From the NCBI RefSeq assembly GCF_009914755.1, contig NC_060947.1: a stretch of 64,000 bases of DNA; one strand, written 5' to 3'. A program made the translations under genes and the position numbers. Under the pieces are notes generated by a model, which searched no databases, was not told the DNA's origin, and saw only the letters and a program-made list of their open reading frames with translations. Below are positions 22,389 to 59,326 of this stretch, one piece after another (within the stretch, counting starts at the first letter, position 1; every line of letters begins with the position of its first letter). Source of the stretch: the human T2T-CHM13v2.0 reference genome, Homo sapiens.

Positions 22389-22779
22389 AGCATTTATTAT
22401 TTCAATTATTTAGTACACATGTATTGTGCACCTTCTGTATTGCTGGGAACACACCAGGCTCCAAAAATATAACTAGGACTATGATAAGATTTTTACTCTC
22501 AGGGGTAAGAGTTAAGTAAATAACAGCCACAATATGGGGTTTGAAAGGTACAGAACCACTAAAAGAGAGGAAAAGGGACAGAATTTTGTTTGAGAACAAA
22601 CAGATTCCAGAAGAGGTGAAGAATAAGGTGATCTTTGACACAAAGCTTAAAAGATTAAGTAGGCACTTGCCATACATAGATGAAAGAAAGTGTAGCAGAC
22701 AAAGAATAGACCAGTCATGATTATTAACTATCAACTAGTCAATTTTTATCACTTAATGGCTATTTATTCCTGGACACAA

Positions 22780-23110
22780 TTGATCTCAGGGAGGTAATGA
22801 GTAGAATGGTAGCTACCAGGGGCTGGAAACAGTAGCAGGGATGACCCGGAAAAAGCAATGCTGGACAGTGGGCACAAACATACATTTAAAGAGAAGAAAT
22901 AAGTTCCAGTATTAAATAGCACAGATGAGTAACTCTAGTTATCCTGTATTTCAAAATACCTAGAAGAGATTTGCAATGTTCTCAACACACACAAAAAAAG
23001 ATAAAATTTGAGGTGATAATATCCTAACTATCCTGATTTGATCCTTCCATATTCATGTATCAAAATATCACATTTATCCCATACACATTTGCAACTAATA
23101 CATATCAGTG
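22780..23110 (+). mobile_element. L1MA 3' end fragment
   Basis: gtagaatggtagctaccaggggctgg ... atcaaaatatcacatttatccc. Confidence 0.6.
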
Positions 23111-24304
23111 AAAATCATGAAGGTATTGGTAACTAATAGCTAACATTAATTCAACATGTACCATGTGTCTAACCTTCTCACCATCATTGTTTCCTCTGAC
23201 ACTCACAGTAACCCTCTGACACAGATACCATCATCACTGTCTGTTTTACAAATAAATAAGAATTGATTTCAGTGTGCTTTGGATGAGCAGTGCTGAGCGA
23301 GCCTTGATTTGCCTGGATAAGAATGCAATGCACTGTCTGGTTCTGGTTCAATTTCATATCTCAGAGCTTATGTACTGTGAGTGCAATAAATCAGGTGTGT
23401 GCACAGAGATCAGGGAAGAGTTAAGTTCCTCCTAAGGAGTGAGTAGAGTATTTTGTGATTTGACTTGATCACCTTAATTTAGATATCTTCACGAAGATAT
23501 GAACCTATCAATCCAAAATGAAATTTTAACTAACATCAGGCAGATGAGATGGCCATTTCCCTCCGGTGTCAGGAGAACTCCTCTCCAAGAGGCAGAGACA
23601 AGAGACTCTGTTTCTCCTGGGTTTCAGTTGCTAAAGGAAAGGACTTGCCACTGGTTTGTAGGCAAACTTCCTTGGGAGACCTCTAAATTTTGTTCAATGC
23701 GTTATTGCTCTAAGGATATATTTAGTGCTTTGTGACTGTACATTTCAACATTCAGCTGTCGAGTGAGACAATATTAAGAGACATGATGCTCTTGATATCA
23801 GCCATTCTTCGAAGCAGGTGTTTATTATGGAACAAAAGAAAATATATGCTTCAATCTAGAATTTAAAAGCACTAACTACAATTTTTCAAGCATATGTATG
23901 TAAATAAAAGTTATTTGTCTTACCATTTTCAGGAGAAAAGTGAATCTTTACACTTGTTTTAGTGTGATTGATTTCTGGTATTCGAACCTAAAATTTAATG
24001 GTCACAAAAAAAGAATAAATTAAATGTTCTCTTTATGAAAAGTAAAATAGGGGCTATAGCACAGGTGATGTGAGAAAAATAGTCACTAAAAAAATAGTAA
24101 CCAAGAGTGCACCCTGAAATAATCTATGGAATTGGGGTGATAATGATCTGTTGATGTAAGTTCATGGAGTGTAAGAAAGGCACCACTCTGGTGGGGGATA
24201 TGAATAGCAGAGAACGGTATGGCAGGAGAACAGGTGGTAAATGAGAAATCTCTAGACCTTCAGATCAATTTGTTGTGAACTAAAAACAATTCTAAAAACA
24301 AAAG

Positions 24305-24498
24305 TCATATATATGTGTTTGTGCATCTATCTACACATATATGTATATATGTACACGTAGATATACATATATATGTACATGTAGATATACATATATAAGT
24401 ATGCATACATGTGTATGCATATATACACATATATACACACAGAGACACACACATATATATATACACACATTTATACACACACATGCATATATACACAC
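24305..24498. repeat. (TA/CA)n compound microsatellite
   Basis: Alternating purine-pyrimidine tract. Confidence 0.9.
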
Positions 24499-24553
24499 CC
24501 CTAATAACTTTTAAGGGCAAAGACTTTCTTCCCTTCAGAATATCTGCCAAAGG

Positions 24554-27145
24554 GACTTCAAGTACACAGTTACTTATTCGAGGTAGTAAGGGGTGGCATA
24601 AATATCAACTGTTCCACACTAAGTACATTGTGACCTAATTATCGTCCTTCCACTATATAGTTAGATAGGCCAGTATGTGTAATGGAACTCTCACATGGAC
24701 TGCTGCAGTGCTTATTTTGCCTCTGTAACTACTGAAAGAAGTCTCAAATATGAATCTTCTTAGAAACTTGAAACAGTACTTAGGCTTATATACCAACACA
24801 TGTGTTGGGTAAAAGGAAAATCCTTTATGAAAATGCAACTTTAGGAATTAAATGCTCCCTATAAGGACCCACTTATTCCTGTATAAGTGATTGCAGGCAG
24901 AAAAACAGAATCTGAATGAACTTGTTTTTTTTCTTAAGCTTGGAAAATCTTGAAAAGGTAAGAATGGTATATAGGGACCAATTAAAATGAAAAGCACAAG
25001 GAAAAATGAGAGGAAGTCCCTCTTCTACTCCCCCAATGGGAGTATTGTGTTTTGAATGATTCATGAATGGAATTTCAGAAACTCAGCAAAAAAATACATT
25101 TAACTGACTTACTCCAAATATATTCTGAATTATATATTTACTAAATAAAGCATTTGGAAATGAATATTTTGTATGCTGTTACATATAAAAACTGCACATT
25201 ACAAAAGGAAAGGTAGGAGAATTCATCACTTAAGTTTTTAGATGCATGTATACTTAAACTTCCACATACTCCACAAATATTAAACTTGAAAAACAAAGCA
25301 CTCTACATAATTTACCTTGCTATAGATGTGAAATAATTGTAAGCGTATATAAATGTTAACGAAATACTTTCAATCAGTGCTAAGGGGAGATATCATTGAA
25401 TGGTGGACCAAAACAAACTACATGGCAATTTGATGTCTTTGTGGAAATAACATACCTACAAGCCAGTGGCTCAACACTGATATTAATATATCTTGCACAG
25501 TTGTCTTAATCATTTATTAGTTTAACTTTTTCAAAAACACAGATGTTAAGGTGCTAGTAAAAATTTTGATAAGGCCATAGAGTATACCTATTTTTTGAAG
25601 TCATACTTTGCCAAGACCAGATCAGTTGGGGAGACCCTAACCCAGTGGCGCTAGAGGAATTAAAGACACACACACACAGAAATATAGAGGTGTGAAGTGG
25701 GAAACCAGGGGTCTCAGAGTCTTCAGACTTGAGAGTCCTGAACAGAGATTTACCCATGTATTTATTAACAGCAAACCAGTCATTAGCATCATTTCTATAG
25801 ATGTTAAATTAACTAAAAGTATCCCTTATGGGAAACGAAGAGATGGGCCAAATTAAAGGAATAGGTTGGGCTAGTTAACTGCAGCAGGAGCATGTCCTTA
25901 AGGCACAGATTGCTCATGCTATTGTTTGTGGCTTAAGAATGCCTTTAAGTGGTTTTCTGCCCTGGGCAGACCAGGTATTCCTTGCCCTCATTCCCGTAAA
26001 CCCACAACCTTCCAGCTTGGGTGTTAGGGCCATTATGAACATGTTACAGTGCTGCAGAGATTTTGTTTATGGTCAGTTTTGGGGCCAGTTTATGGCCAGA
26101 TTTTGGGGGTCCTGCTCCCAACAATACTTTCATTGGAATTGCTTCTTAAACCTACTGATAAATAAAGAAGAATGCACAGATAAAATAGGTTTTGTCTTCT
26201 TTTATTAGAGACAAATGTACTTTTCCATGCCCATGCTTTCTACAGTTTTGGAACTGATACAGATCCACAGTGGCCAAACCTAAAACTAAATTATTTTTAA
26301 TGTTGAAATTTAATTGACCATGTATATAACTGTGCAATTGCTGCTTTCTCTTAGAACTGTCTAGGGTTCATTCAACAGATTGCAGAAACAAGGTCTAACG
26401 TGTGGTTTTGTGTAACTGAAGTTATGCTTGTATCATATAACATAGGTTAAGGTTTTTTCTTCAATCATCAGAATAACAGAGATTGAAGAGACAACTGCAT
26501 AAGTGCCAACTCTTGCTGCAGCTGTTTCAAAAAAAAAAAGAAATTTAAGTAATTGTGATAACATTTTTGCAAATAAAATATTCCAGTGCTTACATCAATC
26601 CTGAGTTACTAAGATTAAATATGCATTACTTACAGTCTCTGACACAGTTTTACTTTGGAAAACAGTGATTTCTTTTTTAAGTTGACTTCCTTCACCAAAA
26701 AGAGTTCTTTCATCATACTTTTCCAAGTTCTTGATACTCTAAAACAAAATGGCTAGGTCACTGACAAACCACCACTTTACATCTCTCATTTTAAACAGAG
26801 TAAATTAAATGTCAAAAGGAAACAATTTTTGGTGTTCAAAGGATGCTAGTTATTTATTACAAGTTTAAAAACTGTAATCAATACATGGAGCTCCAAATAC
26901 CCACCTAAATTTTTTAATGCCAGATTTCAGTGAAATATTATAGCAGGTCCAAAGGTCAAGTACTTTGCTTGGAAAAAAATGGGTTGATGAACATCTTAAG
27001 GTCAAAATGGAGCAAAGGCAGAAAAAAGCTAGCAGTCCGATATTATGAAATACCACATTTGTTCATCTGGTAGTCACCCATTTATAATCATAAATAGTCC
27101 ATTTAACATGGTTTCCATTGAAGGGATAAAATGGCCTGTGATATT
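24554..27145 (-). pseudogene. Duplicated FAM9/SYCP3-like gene 3' end (paralog of 48338-50885) with intact last two coding exons, 26634-26738 and 26468-26521
   Basis: Colinear similarity to the FAM9A 3' region (e.g. gacttcaagtacacagtt at 24554 and 48338; gaagggataaaatgg at 27120 and 50861). Exons encode SIKNLEKYDERTLFGEGSQLKKEITVFQSKTVSET and LQQELALMQLSLQSLLF*; AATAAA at 26201-26206. Confidence 0.88.
25609..26123 (-). mobile_element. MER9 (HERV-K HML-3) solo LTR
   Basis: Minus strand TGTTGGGAGCAGGACCCCCAAAATCTGGCCATAAACTGGCCCCAAAAC...CA; 6-bp TSD ATACTT (25603-25608 and 26124-26129); empty site in the FAM9A copy at ~49505. Confidence 0.88.
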
Positions 27146-27783
27146 CAAGCGACATGGCTCATATGAGGCAATATCCAAGGTTTGTTGCCTCATGCCAAGG
27201 AAATCAAGGACATGAACCGACACAAGGAGTGAGTTTAAGAGTGGAAGTTTAATAGGAAAAAGGAAGAGAAAACAGAATAGCCCTCCCTCCTGCAGAAAGA
27301 GAGGGGCACCTGAGTGGGTCTTCCAGTTTTGTGGTGGAGTGCATAGGGTTCTATAGACTAACTTGAGGAGGCAATGTCTGATTTACATAGAGCCCAAAGA
27401 TTGGTTGGACCAGGTGTGATGTTTTCATAGCACACAAAGAACCTTGCCGCCCCACCCTAATCTTTTTTATTGTGCAAATGTGTTTGCTACTTGGTGGCTC
27501 CATGTTGTCTGCTCCCTTCTGCACACGCGATTTGCAAGGAAAAGGAAAGATGGGGCCACCATGTTGGATATGCCTAGCCCCCAGATAGCCTTTTCCTATT
27601 GGCACAGCTGCCATTATGCAAGCTTTCAGCTTTCTTATCTATGTCTGCAGCTCGATCTTAGAGGCTGGTCTTTATTAGAAAAGAAAGGATTTGGGGACTG
27701 CTTTTTATTAAAAGGGAAACCTTACTGAGGACTTCCTTACCCTGACTATCTGCCTAAATAATTTCTTTTTAATTCCTATACTA
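27146..27783 (-). mobile_element. MER50-like ERV1 LTR (3' LTR)
   Basis: Minus strand begins TAGTATAGGAATTAAAAAGAAATTATTTAGGCAGATAG, like the MER50 consensus start as recalled; preceded by a polypurine tract (AGGGGGAAA); left boundary approximate. Confidence 0.75.
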
Positions 27784-30700
27784 TTTCCCCCTAAGGAGTG
27801 GGGACCCTAACTGCTGTTGGGGGTGTTGGACAATGACTCTTTCTGGCTACTTTCTGCTGAAAGGGGGTGCTTTGTGGGCAACAGAAGCTAGGGCTGCTCC
27901 TGGGGTTGATCTAAGAGTCCTCAGAAGAAAGGTGTGTCATGGTTTTGTCTGCAGCACCATTTGGAATTTGATTGCTGTCAGCCATTCCAGTGGGTTTTAA
28001 TACTGGTTTGCATCCACCAGATATTGCTGAAACATTAATATAAAAGTAAAACTCTTTTTAGGATAAATAGCATTAGGTTTGGGTGGCTAGTGTAACTTTA
28101 GTGTTAACCTTGGTTAAATCTTTGCTGCAATTATTAATCCTTTAATGACTCCCACAGACCATCTACAGCATGTTTAACTTTCTAACTTGTCCTAAACATC
28201 CCTCTTTTTAACAGCCAGTTATTCTCTTTAGGACAAGAATTTACCATACAAGATCCTTTCTTATATAAACCTCCATTTTATTACAACCCACTTTGCATAG
28301 CTAGGGTGTGACATATTACCAAACCCGATAAAAAGTCCCAGCAGACTCAGAGATAGTAAAACCTTCATGTTTACTGCTTGTCAGTAGCTATTATTTCTGC
28401 TATATGGATAATACTTAAGCGAAATGCAACAGCAATGGAAACTCTCTGTCCAACATTTCAGTTAGAAGGTGCTACTATGTATAGCTCTAATGCAAATAGT
28501 AGAGTGAGTATAGCAATTCCCACAAAGGTGCCATAGTAGATTATTTCCATCTAAAATTTAAGTTGTCAAGATATAGAATTTCCCTTTTTGGGGGTCTATG
28601 AAGTTCTTTGGTTTTATTTTCCCAAAGAAAACTCCAGGTTATGGGTACCCTATTTATTTTCATTACCTGGCAGGATTTTCAGGATAATTGCCCAGAACTA
28701 GCATATTGGTCCAGATTTTTACTTTACCCATCCCTTTTTGTTTCTTCCAAGCTGTAGGAGATCACTACTTGGTTCACAAGAGTAAGCAGGGTTCATCTAA
28801 AATGTAGGCAAAAACACTCAGAAACAACCAATGAGACTAAAATTTTACAACAAATGTATGATAAGTTTTGGAGCATAATTTTTCTCTCTCCAATCCTCAT
28901 TTTTGGTAAAAACAAATTATGATAGAACCGTATTGTTTGTAGAATAAACTTTAGTTTTATACTTCACCTGATTCTGTGCATAAAGTGCAGCAAGAATAAT
29001 TATCTTTCCCACGGGCTTTTAAATTGACTTTGGCGGAACTCTGTTTCACAAGGAATCTTAGATAAGACCTCTTAAAGCCAAGTCCAGCCATGGGTTTATA
29101 TCCTCAAATACCTGTGAGTTGGGTGATCCTTTCCTCTTAAAGTCCCAAGATAAACTCAGAGCTCCTAGACCTGTTATAAAGTGACATTCTTTATTGACTG
29201 CAGGTCAGGAACCCTGTACAGGGACTGCATAGATGACTGTATGAGGCAAGTCTATTTCTTTTTTTCCCCAAGGGGCTTTTATAAAGAAAATGTATTCTTA
29301 ATGCACTGATCCAAACCATATTGCCATAAGTTAAGAATACTCACAGTCTCCGAATTTTAGAGAAACCAGGCAGTGAAAAACAAATATGTTTCAAATTTTG
29401 TTCAAGAAGCCTACCTTACTTAATTGACAAAAGCAATAGATATCTTAAAGGAAAAGTTTCCTTGACTTTGAAGAAGAAAACAAAGATTAGCAATGTTTCA
29501 AGCAAAAAGTTAAAAAAGATTACTTCAGACTTCTATTAGTGTAATTCATGCAGTTCAACTACTGTTTGATATTCAGAAACATTTCAGCTCCTCATGAATC
29601 CTGTATATTTTCTCTATTCCAATGTTACAATCTTCAAAGCGATTAGAAACCTGCATTTGAGAACAACTGTTAAAGTCCTATAGCTTGATTATAAACCATC
29701 TTTTGAAAGGGAACAAAGCAAGACAGCAATTGTCTGTGAAAGACAAAATTTCCAGGGTAGTTACAGTTAAAAACACGACTGACAGAGATTTGGTTCTTTC
29801 TGTTGTTTACAATAACTTCAACCTTAATTATAATTGATAGTATATATTTAAACATTAGAATTTTAGAAATCCCACACAATTTTGAAACATACACTAATAT
29901 TATTCACTAAAATATAACCTGAAGAAGATTAAACATCATTTTGGCAATCTCACATACGTAACCATGTTAAATAATCCTGTTAACCTTTTTTTTTCTGGAC
30001 ACTTTAAGGGCCCTTCTGAAGTCTCCAAAAAGCCAGGTGTCAGGAAAGACAATTTTAAAACTGAGGTGTGATTTTGAGAAGCCTCTTAAGTATGTTAGAG
30101 GTTTAACTTTTTTTTTTTTAATTTTTTATTATACTTTAAGTTTTACGGTACATGTGCACATTGTGCAGGTTAGTTAGAGGTTTAAAATACTTGATGTTAT
30201 GAAATAGAATTCCAGATTACCATAAATTATTTATTTTGCCAAAATGATGACTCATAAGGCAAAAATCTTTCATTAGCCTTTACTATTACATGAAAATCCT
30301 GTTCAAAGCCAAATTTTACCCTTGAATTAGTTTATTATAGTTAATCCCAATTTTTAGTGAAATCTCATAGACAATTACATCTAATCTTAACCAATTTGAC
30401 CATGGGTGAAATGTTTGCAAACCTTTTATAACCGTTTTGCTAAAAGGCAGACTAGCATCTTAAGACCATCTTGCTGTGCCTTTATTTAAATGCTCAATTT
30501 ATGAAAAAACCATGTAGTACCATTTTGAATTTAGTTACTGTTTATACATGGGATTTTTTTGCAAGATTAATTTTTGCAATCTTTCATAACTTGCTTAAAT
30601 CTTCAGCTTTAGTTTATCTAATTTAAAACAATCCTTTATCCCTAGGCAAAATTTACATTTCCATGCCTTCTTATAATCATTTACTAAAAGCATACGTTAC

Positions 30701-31938: not shown

Positions 31939-38180
<6,242 letters not shown>

Positions 38181-48333: not shown

Positions 48334-49540
48334 ATGTGACTTCAAGTACACAGTTGCTCACTTTATAGTAAGGGGTGACATAAATATCAATTGTTCCACC
48401 ACTAAGTACATTTTGGCCTCTTTCTCATCCTTCCACTATAGAAGAAATAGTCAGGTAGCCCAGTATGTACAACAGAACTTGCACATGGACCTCCGCAGTG
48501 CTTCTTTTGCCTCTGTAACTACTGAAAGAGATCTCAAAAAAGGATCTTCTTAGAAACTTGAAGTAGTACTTAGGAGTACTTATTAGTACCAACACACGCT
48601 TTGGGTAAAAGGAAAATCCTTTAAGAAAATGCAAACTTTAGGAATGAAATGCTCCCCACAGGGACTCACTTATTCCTGTATAAGTGATTATAGGCAGAAA
48701 AACACTATCTGAATGAACTTGCTTTTTTTCTTAAACTTGGAAAACCTAGAAAAAATAAGAGTGGTATATAGGGGCCAATTAAAATAAAAAGCACAAGGAA
48801 AAATGAGAGGAAGTCGCTCCTCTCCCTCCAATGGGAGTATTATGTTTTGAACAATTCATGAATGGAATTTCAGAAACTCAGCAAAAGAATACATTTAACT
48901 GACTTACTCCAAATATATTCTGAATTTCATATTTACTAAATAGTTTCCAAATGAACATTTTTTTACATGCTGTTACATGTAAAATTCCTTTTACATGTAA
49001 AAACGTGTACATCTTTTTAACATGTTTTTACATGCAAAAATATATTTTTAAACATGTTGTTACATGTTGTTATATGTTGTTACATGTGAAAACATTAACA
49101 TTAAAAAAAGGAAAGGTAGGTGAATTCATCATTCAAGTTTTTAGATGCAGGTATACTTAAACTTCCACATAATCCGTGAATATTAAACTGGAAAAACAAA
49201 GCACTCTACATAATTTAACTTGCCACAGATGTGAAATAATTGTAAGCATACATAAATGTTAACAAAATATTTTCAATCAATGCTAAGGGGAGGTATCATT
49301 GAATGATGGACCAAAACAAACTAAATGTCATTTTGATGTCTGTGGAAATGACATACCCACAAACCAGTGGCTCAGCACTGATATTAATGTATCTTGCTCA
49401 GTTGCCTTAATTATTTATAGTAGTTTAATTTTTTCAAGAACACAGATGTTAAGGTATTTTTAATAATTTTGATATGGCCATAGAGTATATCTATTTTTTG
49501 AAGTCCTACTTTCATTGGAATTGCCTCTTTATCCTAATGA

Positions 49541-50273
<733 letters not shown>

Positions 50274-50411
50274 CTGTTTCAAAAAAAAATTTAAGTAACT
50301 GTGATACACATTTCTGCAAATAAAATATTCCAGTGCTTACATCAATCCTGAGTTTTTAAACTTAAATATGCACTACTTACAGTTCTGACACGATTCTTTT
50401 TAAAAACACGG

Positions 50412-59326
<8,915 letters not shown>

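What the first reader, a model, noticed from the sequence alone, without database searches (positions are those of the whole stretch)
26468..26738. Hidden intact SYCP3-like C-terminal exons in an unannotated-looking FAM9 duplicate
Seen (minus strand): acceptor TTTTGTTTTAG, a 105-nt exon with 35 open codons (SIKNLEKYDERTLFGEGSQLKKEITVFQSKTVSET), donor GTAAGT and a 112-nt intron. Then T12GAAACAG, LQQELALMQLSLQSLLF TGA TGA, and AATAAA at 26201-26206. The ORF track misses both exons because they are short. Known (recalled): human SYCP3 ends [52 protein letters not shown] with a junction after the same Thr. The gapless match is 13/35 and 10/17 identities. This tail is needed for SYCP3 filament assembly, and FAM9A/B/C as recalled all stop before it. 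Inference: the fragment preserves the ancestral SYCP3/Xlr-like FAM9 C-terminus. Frame, three splice sites, stop and poly-A signal all survive despite ~13% intronic divergence from FAM9A, which hints at constraint until recently or continued use.
Basis: partly seen in the sequence, partly recalled or inferred. Interest (0 to 1): 0.85.

Follow-up and report, generated by a model that had tools for sequence, protein, structure and literature searches.

The report
Truncated FAM9 pseudogene piece, tail still open
This is a leftover 3' piece of a duplicated testis gene (FAM9, a relative of the meiotic protein SYCP3) whose last two exons still read cleanly, but it has no front half and has changed like unused DNA, so the clean reading frame is most likely luck.

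Summary
On the minus strand there is an AG acceptor, a 105-nt open exon (26738-26634), a GTAAGT donor, a 112-nt intron, a second AG acceptor, 17 codons plus TGA TGA (26521-26465), and AATAAA at 26206-26201. It is truly homologous to the last two coding exons of SYCP3, with 23 of 52 residues identical to SYCP3 read from chr12 of the same assembly.

It is not a hidden gene. It is a 5'-truncated, unprocessed FAM9 pseudogene fragment holding only exons 9-10, the 3'UTR and 3' flank. It abuts a dispersed repeat at 27144/27145, and no FAM9 exons 1-8 lie anywhere in window 1-47000. A sister fragment at chrX:7.53 Mb shares the same break and is decayed.

On this copy's own lineage the exons changed as fast as the flanks: 11 of 128 against 123 of 1803, p=0.47, omega 1.05. 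A crude neutral simulation gives a 5-19% chance of staying intact. Of 8 X/Y FAM9-clade copies, only this one is open. Whether its GAA at codon 23 was retained or re-opened from the family's TAA is unresolved. Expression and primate orthologues could not be tested here. Interest is low.

The parts
27145..28600 (.). Dispersed interspersed repeat that abuts the FAM9 fragment and marks its 5' truncation. The family was not determined. The part at about 27170-27780 often occurs alone elsewhere in the genome. The upper limit is only the end of the stretch I searched.
   Evidence: 2331 first-look candidates, of which 40 were scored, on many chromosomes at 73-86% identity; no Pfam family at E<=0.01 for the 4 of 18 ORFs tried that lie in 27074-28000; only the chrX:7.53 Mb copy shares this sequence at the same junction.
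26739..27144 (-). Last 406 nt of the FAM9 intron 8 homologue, ending in the acceptor ttttgttttag.
   Evidence: collinear homology to FAM9A 50481-50885 and to all other copies starts exactly at 27144; junction alignment.
26634..26738 (-). Exon 9-like penultimate exon, 105 nt, 35 open codons, phase 0. It is the homologue of the SYCP3 exon that covers Cor1 positions 103-132. Codon 23 (26672-26670) is GAA here.
   Evidence: One search places the SYCP3 exon at Cor1 positions 103-132.
26522..26633 (-). 112-nt intron with GT donor and AG acceptor, homologous to the last intron of SYCP3 and of all FAM9 copies.
26468..26521 (-). Coding start of the exon 10-like last exon: 17 codons plus TGA, followed at once by a second TGA at 26467-26465. 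The last six residues are LQSLLF, against LQSMLF in SYCP3.
   Evidence: Passages of PMC4102245 describe the role of the last six residues of SYCP3.
26190..26467 (-). 3'UTR-like remainder of the last exon with AATAAA at 26206-26201, homologous to the FAM9A 3'UTR and its poly-A signal.
   Evidence: FAM9A exon 10 against 26193-26536, E 1.35e-66 and 6.6e-39.
25610..26123 (.). 514-nt insertion, solo-LTR-like, about 75 nt past the poly-A signal. It is present in this copy and in none of the other FAM9 copies.
   Evidence: all paralogues jump from 26124 to 25609; 1182 first-look candidates. The 39 scored elsewhere are 92-93% identical, and some lie in pairs about 5.5 kb apart.
22578..25609 (-). 3' flank shared with the flanks of FAM9C, FAM9A, FAM9B and the X:10.81 and X:151.46 copies at 78-88% identity. 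The lower limit is set by the end of the FAM9C DNA that I fetched.

Best explanation
This is an unprocessed, 5'-truncated pseudogene fragment of the FAM9 family, which is made up of X-linked, DNA-level duplicates of SYCP3. It holds the end of intron 8, exon 9, intron 9, exon 10 with its 3'UTR and poly-A signal, and at least 3.6 kb of 3' flank. It lies 23 kb downstream of FAM9A on the same strand.

The upstream eight exons and the promoter were lost when the copy was broken at a dispersed repeat. That happened before this copy and its sister at chrX:7.53 Mb separated (shown). Since then it has evolved neutrally for about 0.07 substitutions per site (shown, with low power). No stop, frameshift or splice-site change has happened to land in the 52 codons (inferred to be chance).

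It most likely makes no product. The SYCP3-like tail it could encode, including a near-perfect copy of the SYCP3 fibre-forming last six residues, is a fossil of the ancestral gene end. All three working FAM9 genes have lost that tail.
For: Structure:
- Homology to FAM9A covers only window 24554-27144 against 48338-50885.
- Of the 10 FAM9A exons, only 9 and 10 have counterparts in window 1-47000. With blastn at E<=1, exons 1-8 give only scattered matches of 29 nt or less, best E 0.018. A second pass found only exons 9 and 10 in window 20000-46000.
- FAM9A intron 8 is homologous along its length in FAM9B, FAM9C, X:10.81, X:151.46 and X:151.44. In this copy and X:7.53 it stops at the same base.
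- The junction alignment shows that both share the same foreign sequence upstream. That sequence is a dispersed repeat.

Sister copy: X:7.53 has TAA at codon 23, a 4-nt insertion and a 1-nt deletion.

Neutral pattern on this copy's lineage:
- Exon changes are 11 of 128 scorable columns against 123 of 1803 in the flank, Fisher p=0.47.
- There are 8 non-synonymous and 2 synonymous changes, omega 1.05.

Chance of intactness: the simulation gives 0.06-0.14 per copy at d=0.07 and 0.045-0.19 over d=0.05-0.09. There were 8 FAM9-clade copies to look at.

Annotation: the hub's RefSeq table lists no gene or pseudogene here.
Against: - This is the only one of the 8 X/Y FAM9-clade copies, plus the older Xq28 copy, with an open frame, AG/GT/AG and the stop all intact. 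A 5-19% chance is not large, and it is smaller still if the frame first had to be re-opened at codon 23.
- Two own-lineage changes move the peptide towards SYCP3: stop or Glu at codon 23, and Pro to Ser inside the last-six motif.
- In exon columns, 5 of 11 own-specific states equal an outgroup base, against 4 of 52 in the flank (p=0.006). The other copies show the same exon excess (27 of 106 against 28 of 246), and this copy does not differ from them (p=0.17).
- The selection tests rest on 10-11 substitutions and cannot exclude moderate constraint.
- The simulation is crude: uniform rates, kappa 2, and 20% of indels assumed harmless.
- The acceptor is in phase 0, the same phase as the end of FAM9A exon 8, so an in-frame FAM9A read-through isoform is arithmetically possible.
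- No RNA, proteomic, population or primate data could be consulted.
Confidence: 0.8

Rival explanations
1. The exon pair is used. It would serve either as an alternative 3' end of FAM9A, by read-through past the FAM9A poly-A site and splicing of exon 8 to the 26738 acceptor, or in a transcript started in the adjoining repeat. Either route would give a protein with a SYCP3-type self-assembly tail.
For: - Same strand as FAM9A and 23 kb downstream.
- FAM9A has 930 coding nt before exon 9, so exon 8 ends in phase 0 and the 26738 exon starts in phase 0. This is arithmetic on the hub's annotation.
- Splice signals and AATAAA are intact.
- The last six residues match SYCP3 at 5 of 6, and that motif is needed for SYCP3 fibres (PMC4102245, passages).
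- It is the only intact copy among the 9 non-SYCP3 copies compared.
Against: - There is no RefSeq model here (hub table).
- The substitution pattern is neutral.
- The sister fragment has decayed.
- The 35-codon exon has no in-frame ATG, so it needs an upstream coding exon.
- The FAM9A poly-A site and a pseudogene (DRAXINP1) lie in between.
- Nothing here tests transcription.
Confidence: 0.05
2. History variant. The fragment never carried the family's stop. The lineage of this copy plus X:7.53 split off before G changed to T at codon 23 in the other FAM9 copies, and X:7.53 acquired the same T independently. On this reading the tail is truly a retained ancestral state. It is still a neutral fragment.
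For: - SYCP3 and the older Xq28 copy both have GAA at this codon.
- A tree with the six other copies as one clade is not rejected (lnL 4.8 lower, p-AU 0.076). On that tree, retention plus a parallel hit costs two changes, the same as stop plus reversal.
- The FAM9 clade is a near-polytomy.
Against: - The best tree nests this copy plus X:7.53 inside the clade. On that tree retention needs four parallel G-to-T changes, against two steps for a reversal.
- Placing this copy alone as sister to all the others is borderline (p-AU 0.051), and the shared break with X:7.53 contradicts it.
- It requires the same nonsense change twice at one site.
Confidence: 0.35
3. The exons were refreshed by gene conversion from a SYCP3-like source, which reset lesions and explains the SYCP3-like states.
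For: In exon columns 5 of 11 own-specific states equal an outgroup base, against 4 of 52 in the flank, Fisher p=0.006.
Against: - The same exon excess is seen pooled over the seven other copies (27 of 106 against 28 of 246, p=0.0013), and this copy does not differ from them (p=0.17).
- The remaining own-specific exon states match no outgroup.
- No tract of consecutive SYCP3-like sites is visible in the alignment.
- The intron between the exons is FAM9-like, not SYCP3-like.
Confidence: 0.05

Closest known systems
FAM9A, FAM9B and FAM9C (human Xp22.3, testis-expressed SYCP3/Cor1 relatives)
   Same: 81-84% nucleotide identity over the last intron-exon block, and up to 88% in the 3' flank. The exon-intron layout of exons 9-10 is the same, as are the poly-A signal and the 3' flank.
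   Different: - The working genes have 10 exons. This copy has two.
- The genes end inside exon 9. FAM9A and FAM9B have TAG at codon 23. FAM9C has a 1-nt deletion and a stop at the exon's end. The B and C phases are inferred.
- This copy reads through to the SYCP3-type end.
SYCP3 (chr12), last two coding exons
   Same: Same exon lengths (105 nt, then 17 codons plus TGA), same splice phases, 23 of 52 identical residues, and 5 of 6 in the last-six motif. Intron homology is about 70%.
   Different: SYCP3 is a complete gene with the full Cor1 domain spread over upstream exons. Here nothing upstream remains. The Cor1 HMM does not score this exon at E<=10, whereas it gives the SYCP3 exon 30.9 bits.
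Sister fragment at chrX:7,526,700-7,528,360 (loci L003, L026)
   Same: The 5' break is identical within a few bases and is followed by the same dispersed repeat. It also has only exons 9-10, and the two group together in the tree with 72/85 support.
   Different: That copy has TAA at codon 23, a 4-nt insertion in the exon and a 1-nt deletion in the last exon. It shares only about 580 nt of the repeat, whereas here the repeat continues to at least 28600.
Mouse Xlr/Slx/Sly Cor1 genes (recalled, not examined here)
   Same: They are X- or Y-linked multicopy SYCP3 derivatives expressed in germ cells. I saw only the titles and abstracts listed.
   Different: No sequence comparison was made. Those are expressed multi-exon genes, not a two-exon remnant.

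Membership tests
Cor1 / SYCP3 family (Pfam PF04803) | Significant match to the Cor1 profile | tested here: not met
   0 families at E<=10 for the 35-aa exon; the genome-wide Cor1 scan (25 of 25 candidates scored, 16 matches) lists nothing inside this window, not even FAM9A, so its sensitivity for FAM9 exons is poor.
Cor1 / SYCP3 family (Pfam PF04803) | Descent from SYCP3: collinear homology of exons and intron with the SYCP3 locus | tested here: met
   chr12 SYCP3 locus at 70% identity, E 1.6e-47; same splice sites; 23 of 52 identities, blastp E 1.8e-14, 0 of 100000 shuffles.
Cor1 / SYCP3 family (Pfam PF04803) | A complete Cor1 domain, meaning the exons for profile positions 1-102 | tested here: not met
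   no counterpart of FAM9A exons 1-8 in window 1-47000. Homology stops at 27144.
FAM9 gene family | Close nucleotide similarity to FAM9A/B/C and placement inside the FAM9 clade | tested here: met
   81-86% identity; the clade of 8 X/Y copies is supported 98/99 against SYCP3 and the older Xq28 copy.
FAM9 gene family | Full ten-exon gene body | tested here: not met
   FAM9A, FAM9B, FAM9C and X:10.81 show exons 1-10. This copy shows only exons 9 and 10.
FAM9 gene family | Termination within the penultimate exon (T at the first base of codon 23) | tested here: not met
   this copy has G at 26672. Six of the six other FAM9 copies with sequence at that column have T, and the Y copy has it deleted.
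Unprocessed (duplicated) pseudogene fragment | Introns and flanks retained, but promoter and upstream exons missing | tested here: met
Unprocessed (duplicated) pseudogene fragment | Neutral substitution pattern | tested here: met
   exon 11/128 against flank 123/1803, p=0.47; omega 1.05 from 8 N and 2 S changes. Power is low.
Unprocessed (duplicated) pseudogene fragment | Disabling lesions inside the retained exons | tested here: not met
frame, AG/GT/AG and stop are all intact.
SYCP3 Ct6 self-assembly motif | Conserved last six residues that drive fibre formation | tested here: inconclusive
   The sequence matches at 5 of 6, LQSLLF against LQSMLF. The function of the motif in SYCP3 comes from passages of PMC4102245. 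Whether this copy is ever translated, or would assemble, cannot be tested here.

The most novel reading that the evidence does not exclude
The open exon pair is a live alternative 3' end. FAM9A transcripts that run past their poly-A site would splice exon 8 (phase 0) to the 26738 acceptor. The result would be a FAM9A isoform that regains the SYCP3-type C-terminus with its fibre-forming last-six motif, giving a human X-linked Cor1 protein able to co-assemble with or cap SYCP3 filaments. The T-to-G change at codon 23 and the Pro-to-Ser change in the motif would then be adaptive restorations.
Probability: 0.04. Interest if true: 0.55.

Novelty: new member of a known kind. Interest (0 to 1): 0.15.

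Why it matters
As it stands it matters little. It is one more unannotated pseudogene fragment in the low-copy-repeat landscape of Xp22.3.

It does have modest value as a molecular fossil. Together with the paralogue comparison, it shows that the FAM9 family arose by DNA-level duplication of SYCP3, with introns conserved. It also shows that the SYCP3 self-assembly tail was cut off by a stop at one codon, shared by six of the seven other FAM9-clade copies (the seventh has that stretch deleted). That helps explain why FAM9 proteins need not behave like SYCP3.

If the exons were shown to be spliced into FAM9A transcripts, the finding would become a real addition to human meiotic protein biology.

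Tried and rejected
- Pfam Cor1 on the 35-aa exon and on FAM9A exon 9 gave no hit at E<=10.
- phmmer of the exon against PDB sequences put SYCP3 2nd and 3rd of the 3 sequences listed (177635 searched), but at E 0.55 and 1.7, which is not significant alone.
- tblastx of FAM9A exons against window 1-47000 produced many low-complexity matches for exon 7, scattered over repeats on both strands. I disregarded them as compositional, and none was collinear.
- The Cor1 scan of the whole genome missed all FAM9A exons, so it could not be used to exclude upstream exons. I used blastn with FAM9A exons and introns instead.
- I looked for coding remnants to name and orient the adjoining repeat. The 4 ORFs within 27074-28000 had no Pfam hit. 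Only L1 ORF1 and RT appeared, further away on the + strand.
- The search for homologous proteins would not take the 35-aa exon because the minimum is 40, so I did not search protein databases for primate FAM9-like proteins with a full tail.
- The founding FAM9 paper (Martinez-Garay et al. 2002, PMID 12213195) is not held. I saw only its title in the reference list of PMC8432983. It may describe extra FAM9 copies.
- Three literature searches showed nothing, in the titles and abstract starts listed, that describes a FAM9 fragment between ANOS1 and FAM9A (36 papers, 25 listed; 87, 20 listed; 60, 12 listed). I opened only PMC8432983 and PMC4102245, and only passages of each.
- I considered the gene-conversion idea and set it aside.
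Full report
**1. What is in the sequence**

- Acceptor ttttgttttag ending at 26739.
- A 105-nt exon at 26738-26634 with 35 open codons.
- Donor gtaagt.
- A 112-nt intron at 26633-26522.
- A T-run followed by gaaacag.
- 17 codons at 26521-26471.
- TGA at 26470-26468, a second TGA straight after it, and AATAAA at 26206-26201.

FAM9A's own last two exons, read alongside, have near-identical flanking introns. Its penultimate exon is strongly diverged and ends in TAG at 50414-50412, as annotated.

**2. Is the SYCP3 likeness real?**

It is real.
- The window's assembly can be searched. The 1-kb block matches the SYCP3 locus on chr12 at 70% identity (E 1.6e-47), intron included.
- SYCP3's two last coding exons, read from that locus, have the same lengths, the same splice dinucleotides and the same junction.
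Pairwise blastp gives E 1.8e-14, and 0 of 100000 shuffles reach that identity.

- Pfam Cor1 gives nothing for the 35-aa exon at E<=10.
- phmmer against PDB sequences lists SYCP3 2nd and 3rd of 3 sequences, at only E 0.55 and 1.7.
- Cor1 positions 103-132 do correspond to this exon in SYCP3.

Passages of PMC4102245 confirm that SYCP3 fibre formation needs its last six residues. Here they match at 5 of 6.

**3. How much of a gene is there?**

Only a 3' piece remains.
- Self-comparison of the window shows homology to FAM9A only for 24554-27144 against 48338-50885.
- Of FAM9A's ten exons, only 9 and 10 have counterparts in window 1-47000. For exons 1-8, blastn at E<=1 gave only scattered matches of 29 nt or less, best E 0.018. 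The tblastx matches of exon 7 were low-complexity noise.
- A second pass against 20-kb stretches around every paralogue gave this table:
  - FAM9A, FAM9B, FAM9C and a copy at X:10.81 Mb have exons 1-10.
  - Two Xq28 copies have exons 6-10.
  - This copy, one at X:7.53 Mb and one on the Y have exons 9-10 only.
- FAM9A intron 8 is homologous along its length in FAM9B, FAM9C, X:10.81, X:151.46 and X:151.44. In this copy and X:7.53 it stops at the same base.
- The junction alignment shows that these two copies share the same foreign sequence upstream.
- That sequence (27145 to at least 28600) is a dispersed repeat: 2331 first-look candidates, of which 40 were scored. The 4 ORFs tried within 27074-28000 have no Pfam domain at E<=0.01.
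- Downstream, a 514-nt solo-LTR-like element at 25610-26123 is inserted in this copy only.
- The 3' flank continues to at least 22578.

The truncation therefore predates the split from X:7.53.

**4. The other copies**

Aligned over the two exons, only this copy and SYCP3 keep AG/GT/AG, both frames and the stop.

| Copy | Lesions relative to the SYCP3-type tail |
|---|---|
| X:151.46 | TAA at codon 23; second acceptor lost |
| X:7.53 | TAA at codon 23, a 4-nt insertion and a 1-nt deletion |
| X:10.81 | 12-nt insertion, donor AT, second acceptor AA, two stops in the last exon |
| FAM9C | 1-nt deletion, so it stops at the exon's end in another frame |
| FAM9B and FAM9A | TAG at codon 23; FAM9A also has a 4-nt deletion in the last exon |
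| Y copy | Most of the exon lost; a stop in the last exon |
| X:151.44 (older Xq28 copy) | An Alu inside the exon |

The frames of FAM9B and FAM9C assume FAM9A's phase. At the first base of codon 23, all six other FAM9 copies that still have the column carry T. This copy, SYCP3 and the older Xq28 copy carry G.

**5. Tree**

The tree used 2141 kept columns of 10 rows.
- The eight X/Y FAM9 copies form a clade (98/99), with the older Xq28 copy and SYCP3 outside it.
- Inside the clade there is a near-polytomy. FAM9A+B (100/100) group with the Y copy (100/99). FAM9C groups with X:10.81 (100/99). This copy groups with X:7.53 (72/85).
- This copy's terminal branch is 0.07 substitutions per site.
- Placing this copy alone as sister to all the others costs 7.15 lnL, p-AU 0.051.
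- Placing this copy plus X:7.53 as sister to the rest costs 4.8 lnL, p-AU 0.076.

The G at codon 23 is therefore either a reversal of the family's stop, which needs two steps on the best tree against four parallel hits for retention, or a retained state with a parallel nonsense change in X:7.53. I put this at about 60:40 for reversal.

**6. Constraint?**

I took the majority state of the seven other copies as the ancestor, scoring a column if at least 4 were present and at least 70% agreed.
- This copy changed at 11 of 128 exon columns and 123 of 1803 flank columns, Fisher p=0.47.
- Setting codon 23 aside, 8 changes are non-synonymous and 2 synonymous over 123.5 N and 32.5 S sites, omega 1.05.
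- There are 12 own-specific indels in about 1 kb.
- A simple neutral simulation (uniform rates, kappa 2, 20% of indels assumed harmless) gives 0.06-0.14 at d=0.07 for keeping frame, splice dinucleotides and stop. Over d=0.05-0.09 the range is 0.045-0.19.
- With eight copies, one survivor is unremarkable if all started open. It is less likely if the frame had to be re-opened first.

These tests have little power, resting on 10-11 events. They show no sign of purifying selection but cannot exclude mild selection.

In exon columns, 5 of 11 own-specific states equal an outgroup base, against 4 of 52 in the flank (p=0.006). The other copies show the same exon excess (27 of 106 against 28 of 246), and this copy does not stand out from them (p=0.17). 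I do not read this as gene conversion.

**7. Verdict**

This is an unannotated, 5'-truncated, unprocessed FAM9 pseudogene fragment whose SYCP3-type tail happens to be open. The structural argument carries most of the weight: there is no promoter and no exons 1-8, a repeat sits at the break, and the sister copy with the same break has decayed.

What remains open is whether the exons are ever spliced. FAM9A exon 8 ends in phase 0 (930 coding nt before exon 9, from the annotation), so an in-frame read-through isoform is arithmetically possible. No data here bear on it.

The following could not be examined: primate orthologues, RNA-seq, proteomics, population variants, and the founding FAM9 paper (not held). 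The literature searches (listings only, plus passages of PMC8432983) showed nothing describing this fragment.

Noticed in passing
L019+L027 (G000:C23:10795000-10814999), + strand: A full-length FAM9C-like copy with counterparts of all ten FAM9A exons. It is sister to FAM9C (100/99). Its last two exons are disabled: 12-nt insertion, donor AT, second acceptor AA, and stops in the last exon. I do not know whether it is annotated.
   Followed up: partly
L017+L025 (G000:C23:151455000-151474999, - strand) and L023+L031 (G000:C23:151424000-151443999, + strand): An inverted pair of partial SYCP3/FAM9-like copies in Xq28, each with exons 6-10 only. The + strand copy has an Alu inside the penultimate exon and branches outside the FAM9 clade, nearer SYCP3. 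It may be a relic of the first X-linked SYCP3 duplicate.
   Followed up: partly
L022+L030 (G000:C24:6752000-6771999), + strand: A Y-linked FAM9 fragment with exons 9-10 only, a large deletion in the exon and a stop in the last exon. It groups with FAM9A+FAM9B at 100/99. It looks like a decayed Y gametologue, which implies the family radiation predates that X-Y split.
   Followed up: partly
window 59182-59310 and 58067-58195 (- strand): FAM9A exons 2 and 3 are a tandem duplicate of each other, 98.45% identical over 129 nt.
   Followed up: no
window 50381-50480 (FAM9A exon 9) and its FAM9B counterpart in L021: The penultimate exon of FAM9A and FAM9B carries far more lineage-specific differences than the other copies. 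There are 33 and 29 in the exon columns, against 4-12 elsewhere, while their flank counts are ordinary at 34 and 38. This suggests accelerated change of the gene's C-terminal exon after the tail was cut off.
   Followed up: no
window 25610-26123: A 514-nt element inserted about 75 nt past the poly-A signal in this copy only. It is 92-93% identical to the 39 scored copies elsewhere (1182 first-look candidates), and some of those lie in pairs about 5.5 kb apart, as LTRs of a provirus would.
   Followed up: partly
window 33722-36441, + strand: L1 remnants: ORF1 RNA-binding domains (E 1e-23) and reverse transcriptase (E 3.7e-38).
   Followed up: no
G000:C1:19121015-19121330 (+) and G000:C8:43394852-43395151 (-): Continuous Cor1 matches spanning several SYCP3 exons with internal stops. 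They look like processed SYCP3 pseudogenes.
   Followed up: no
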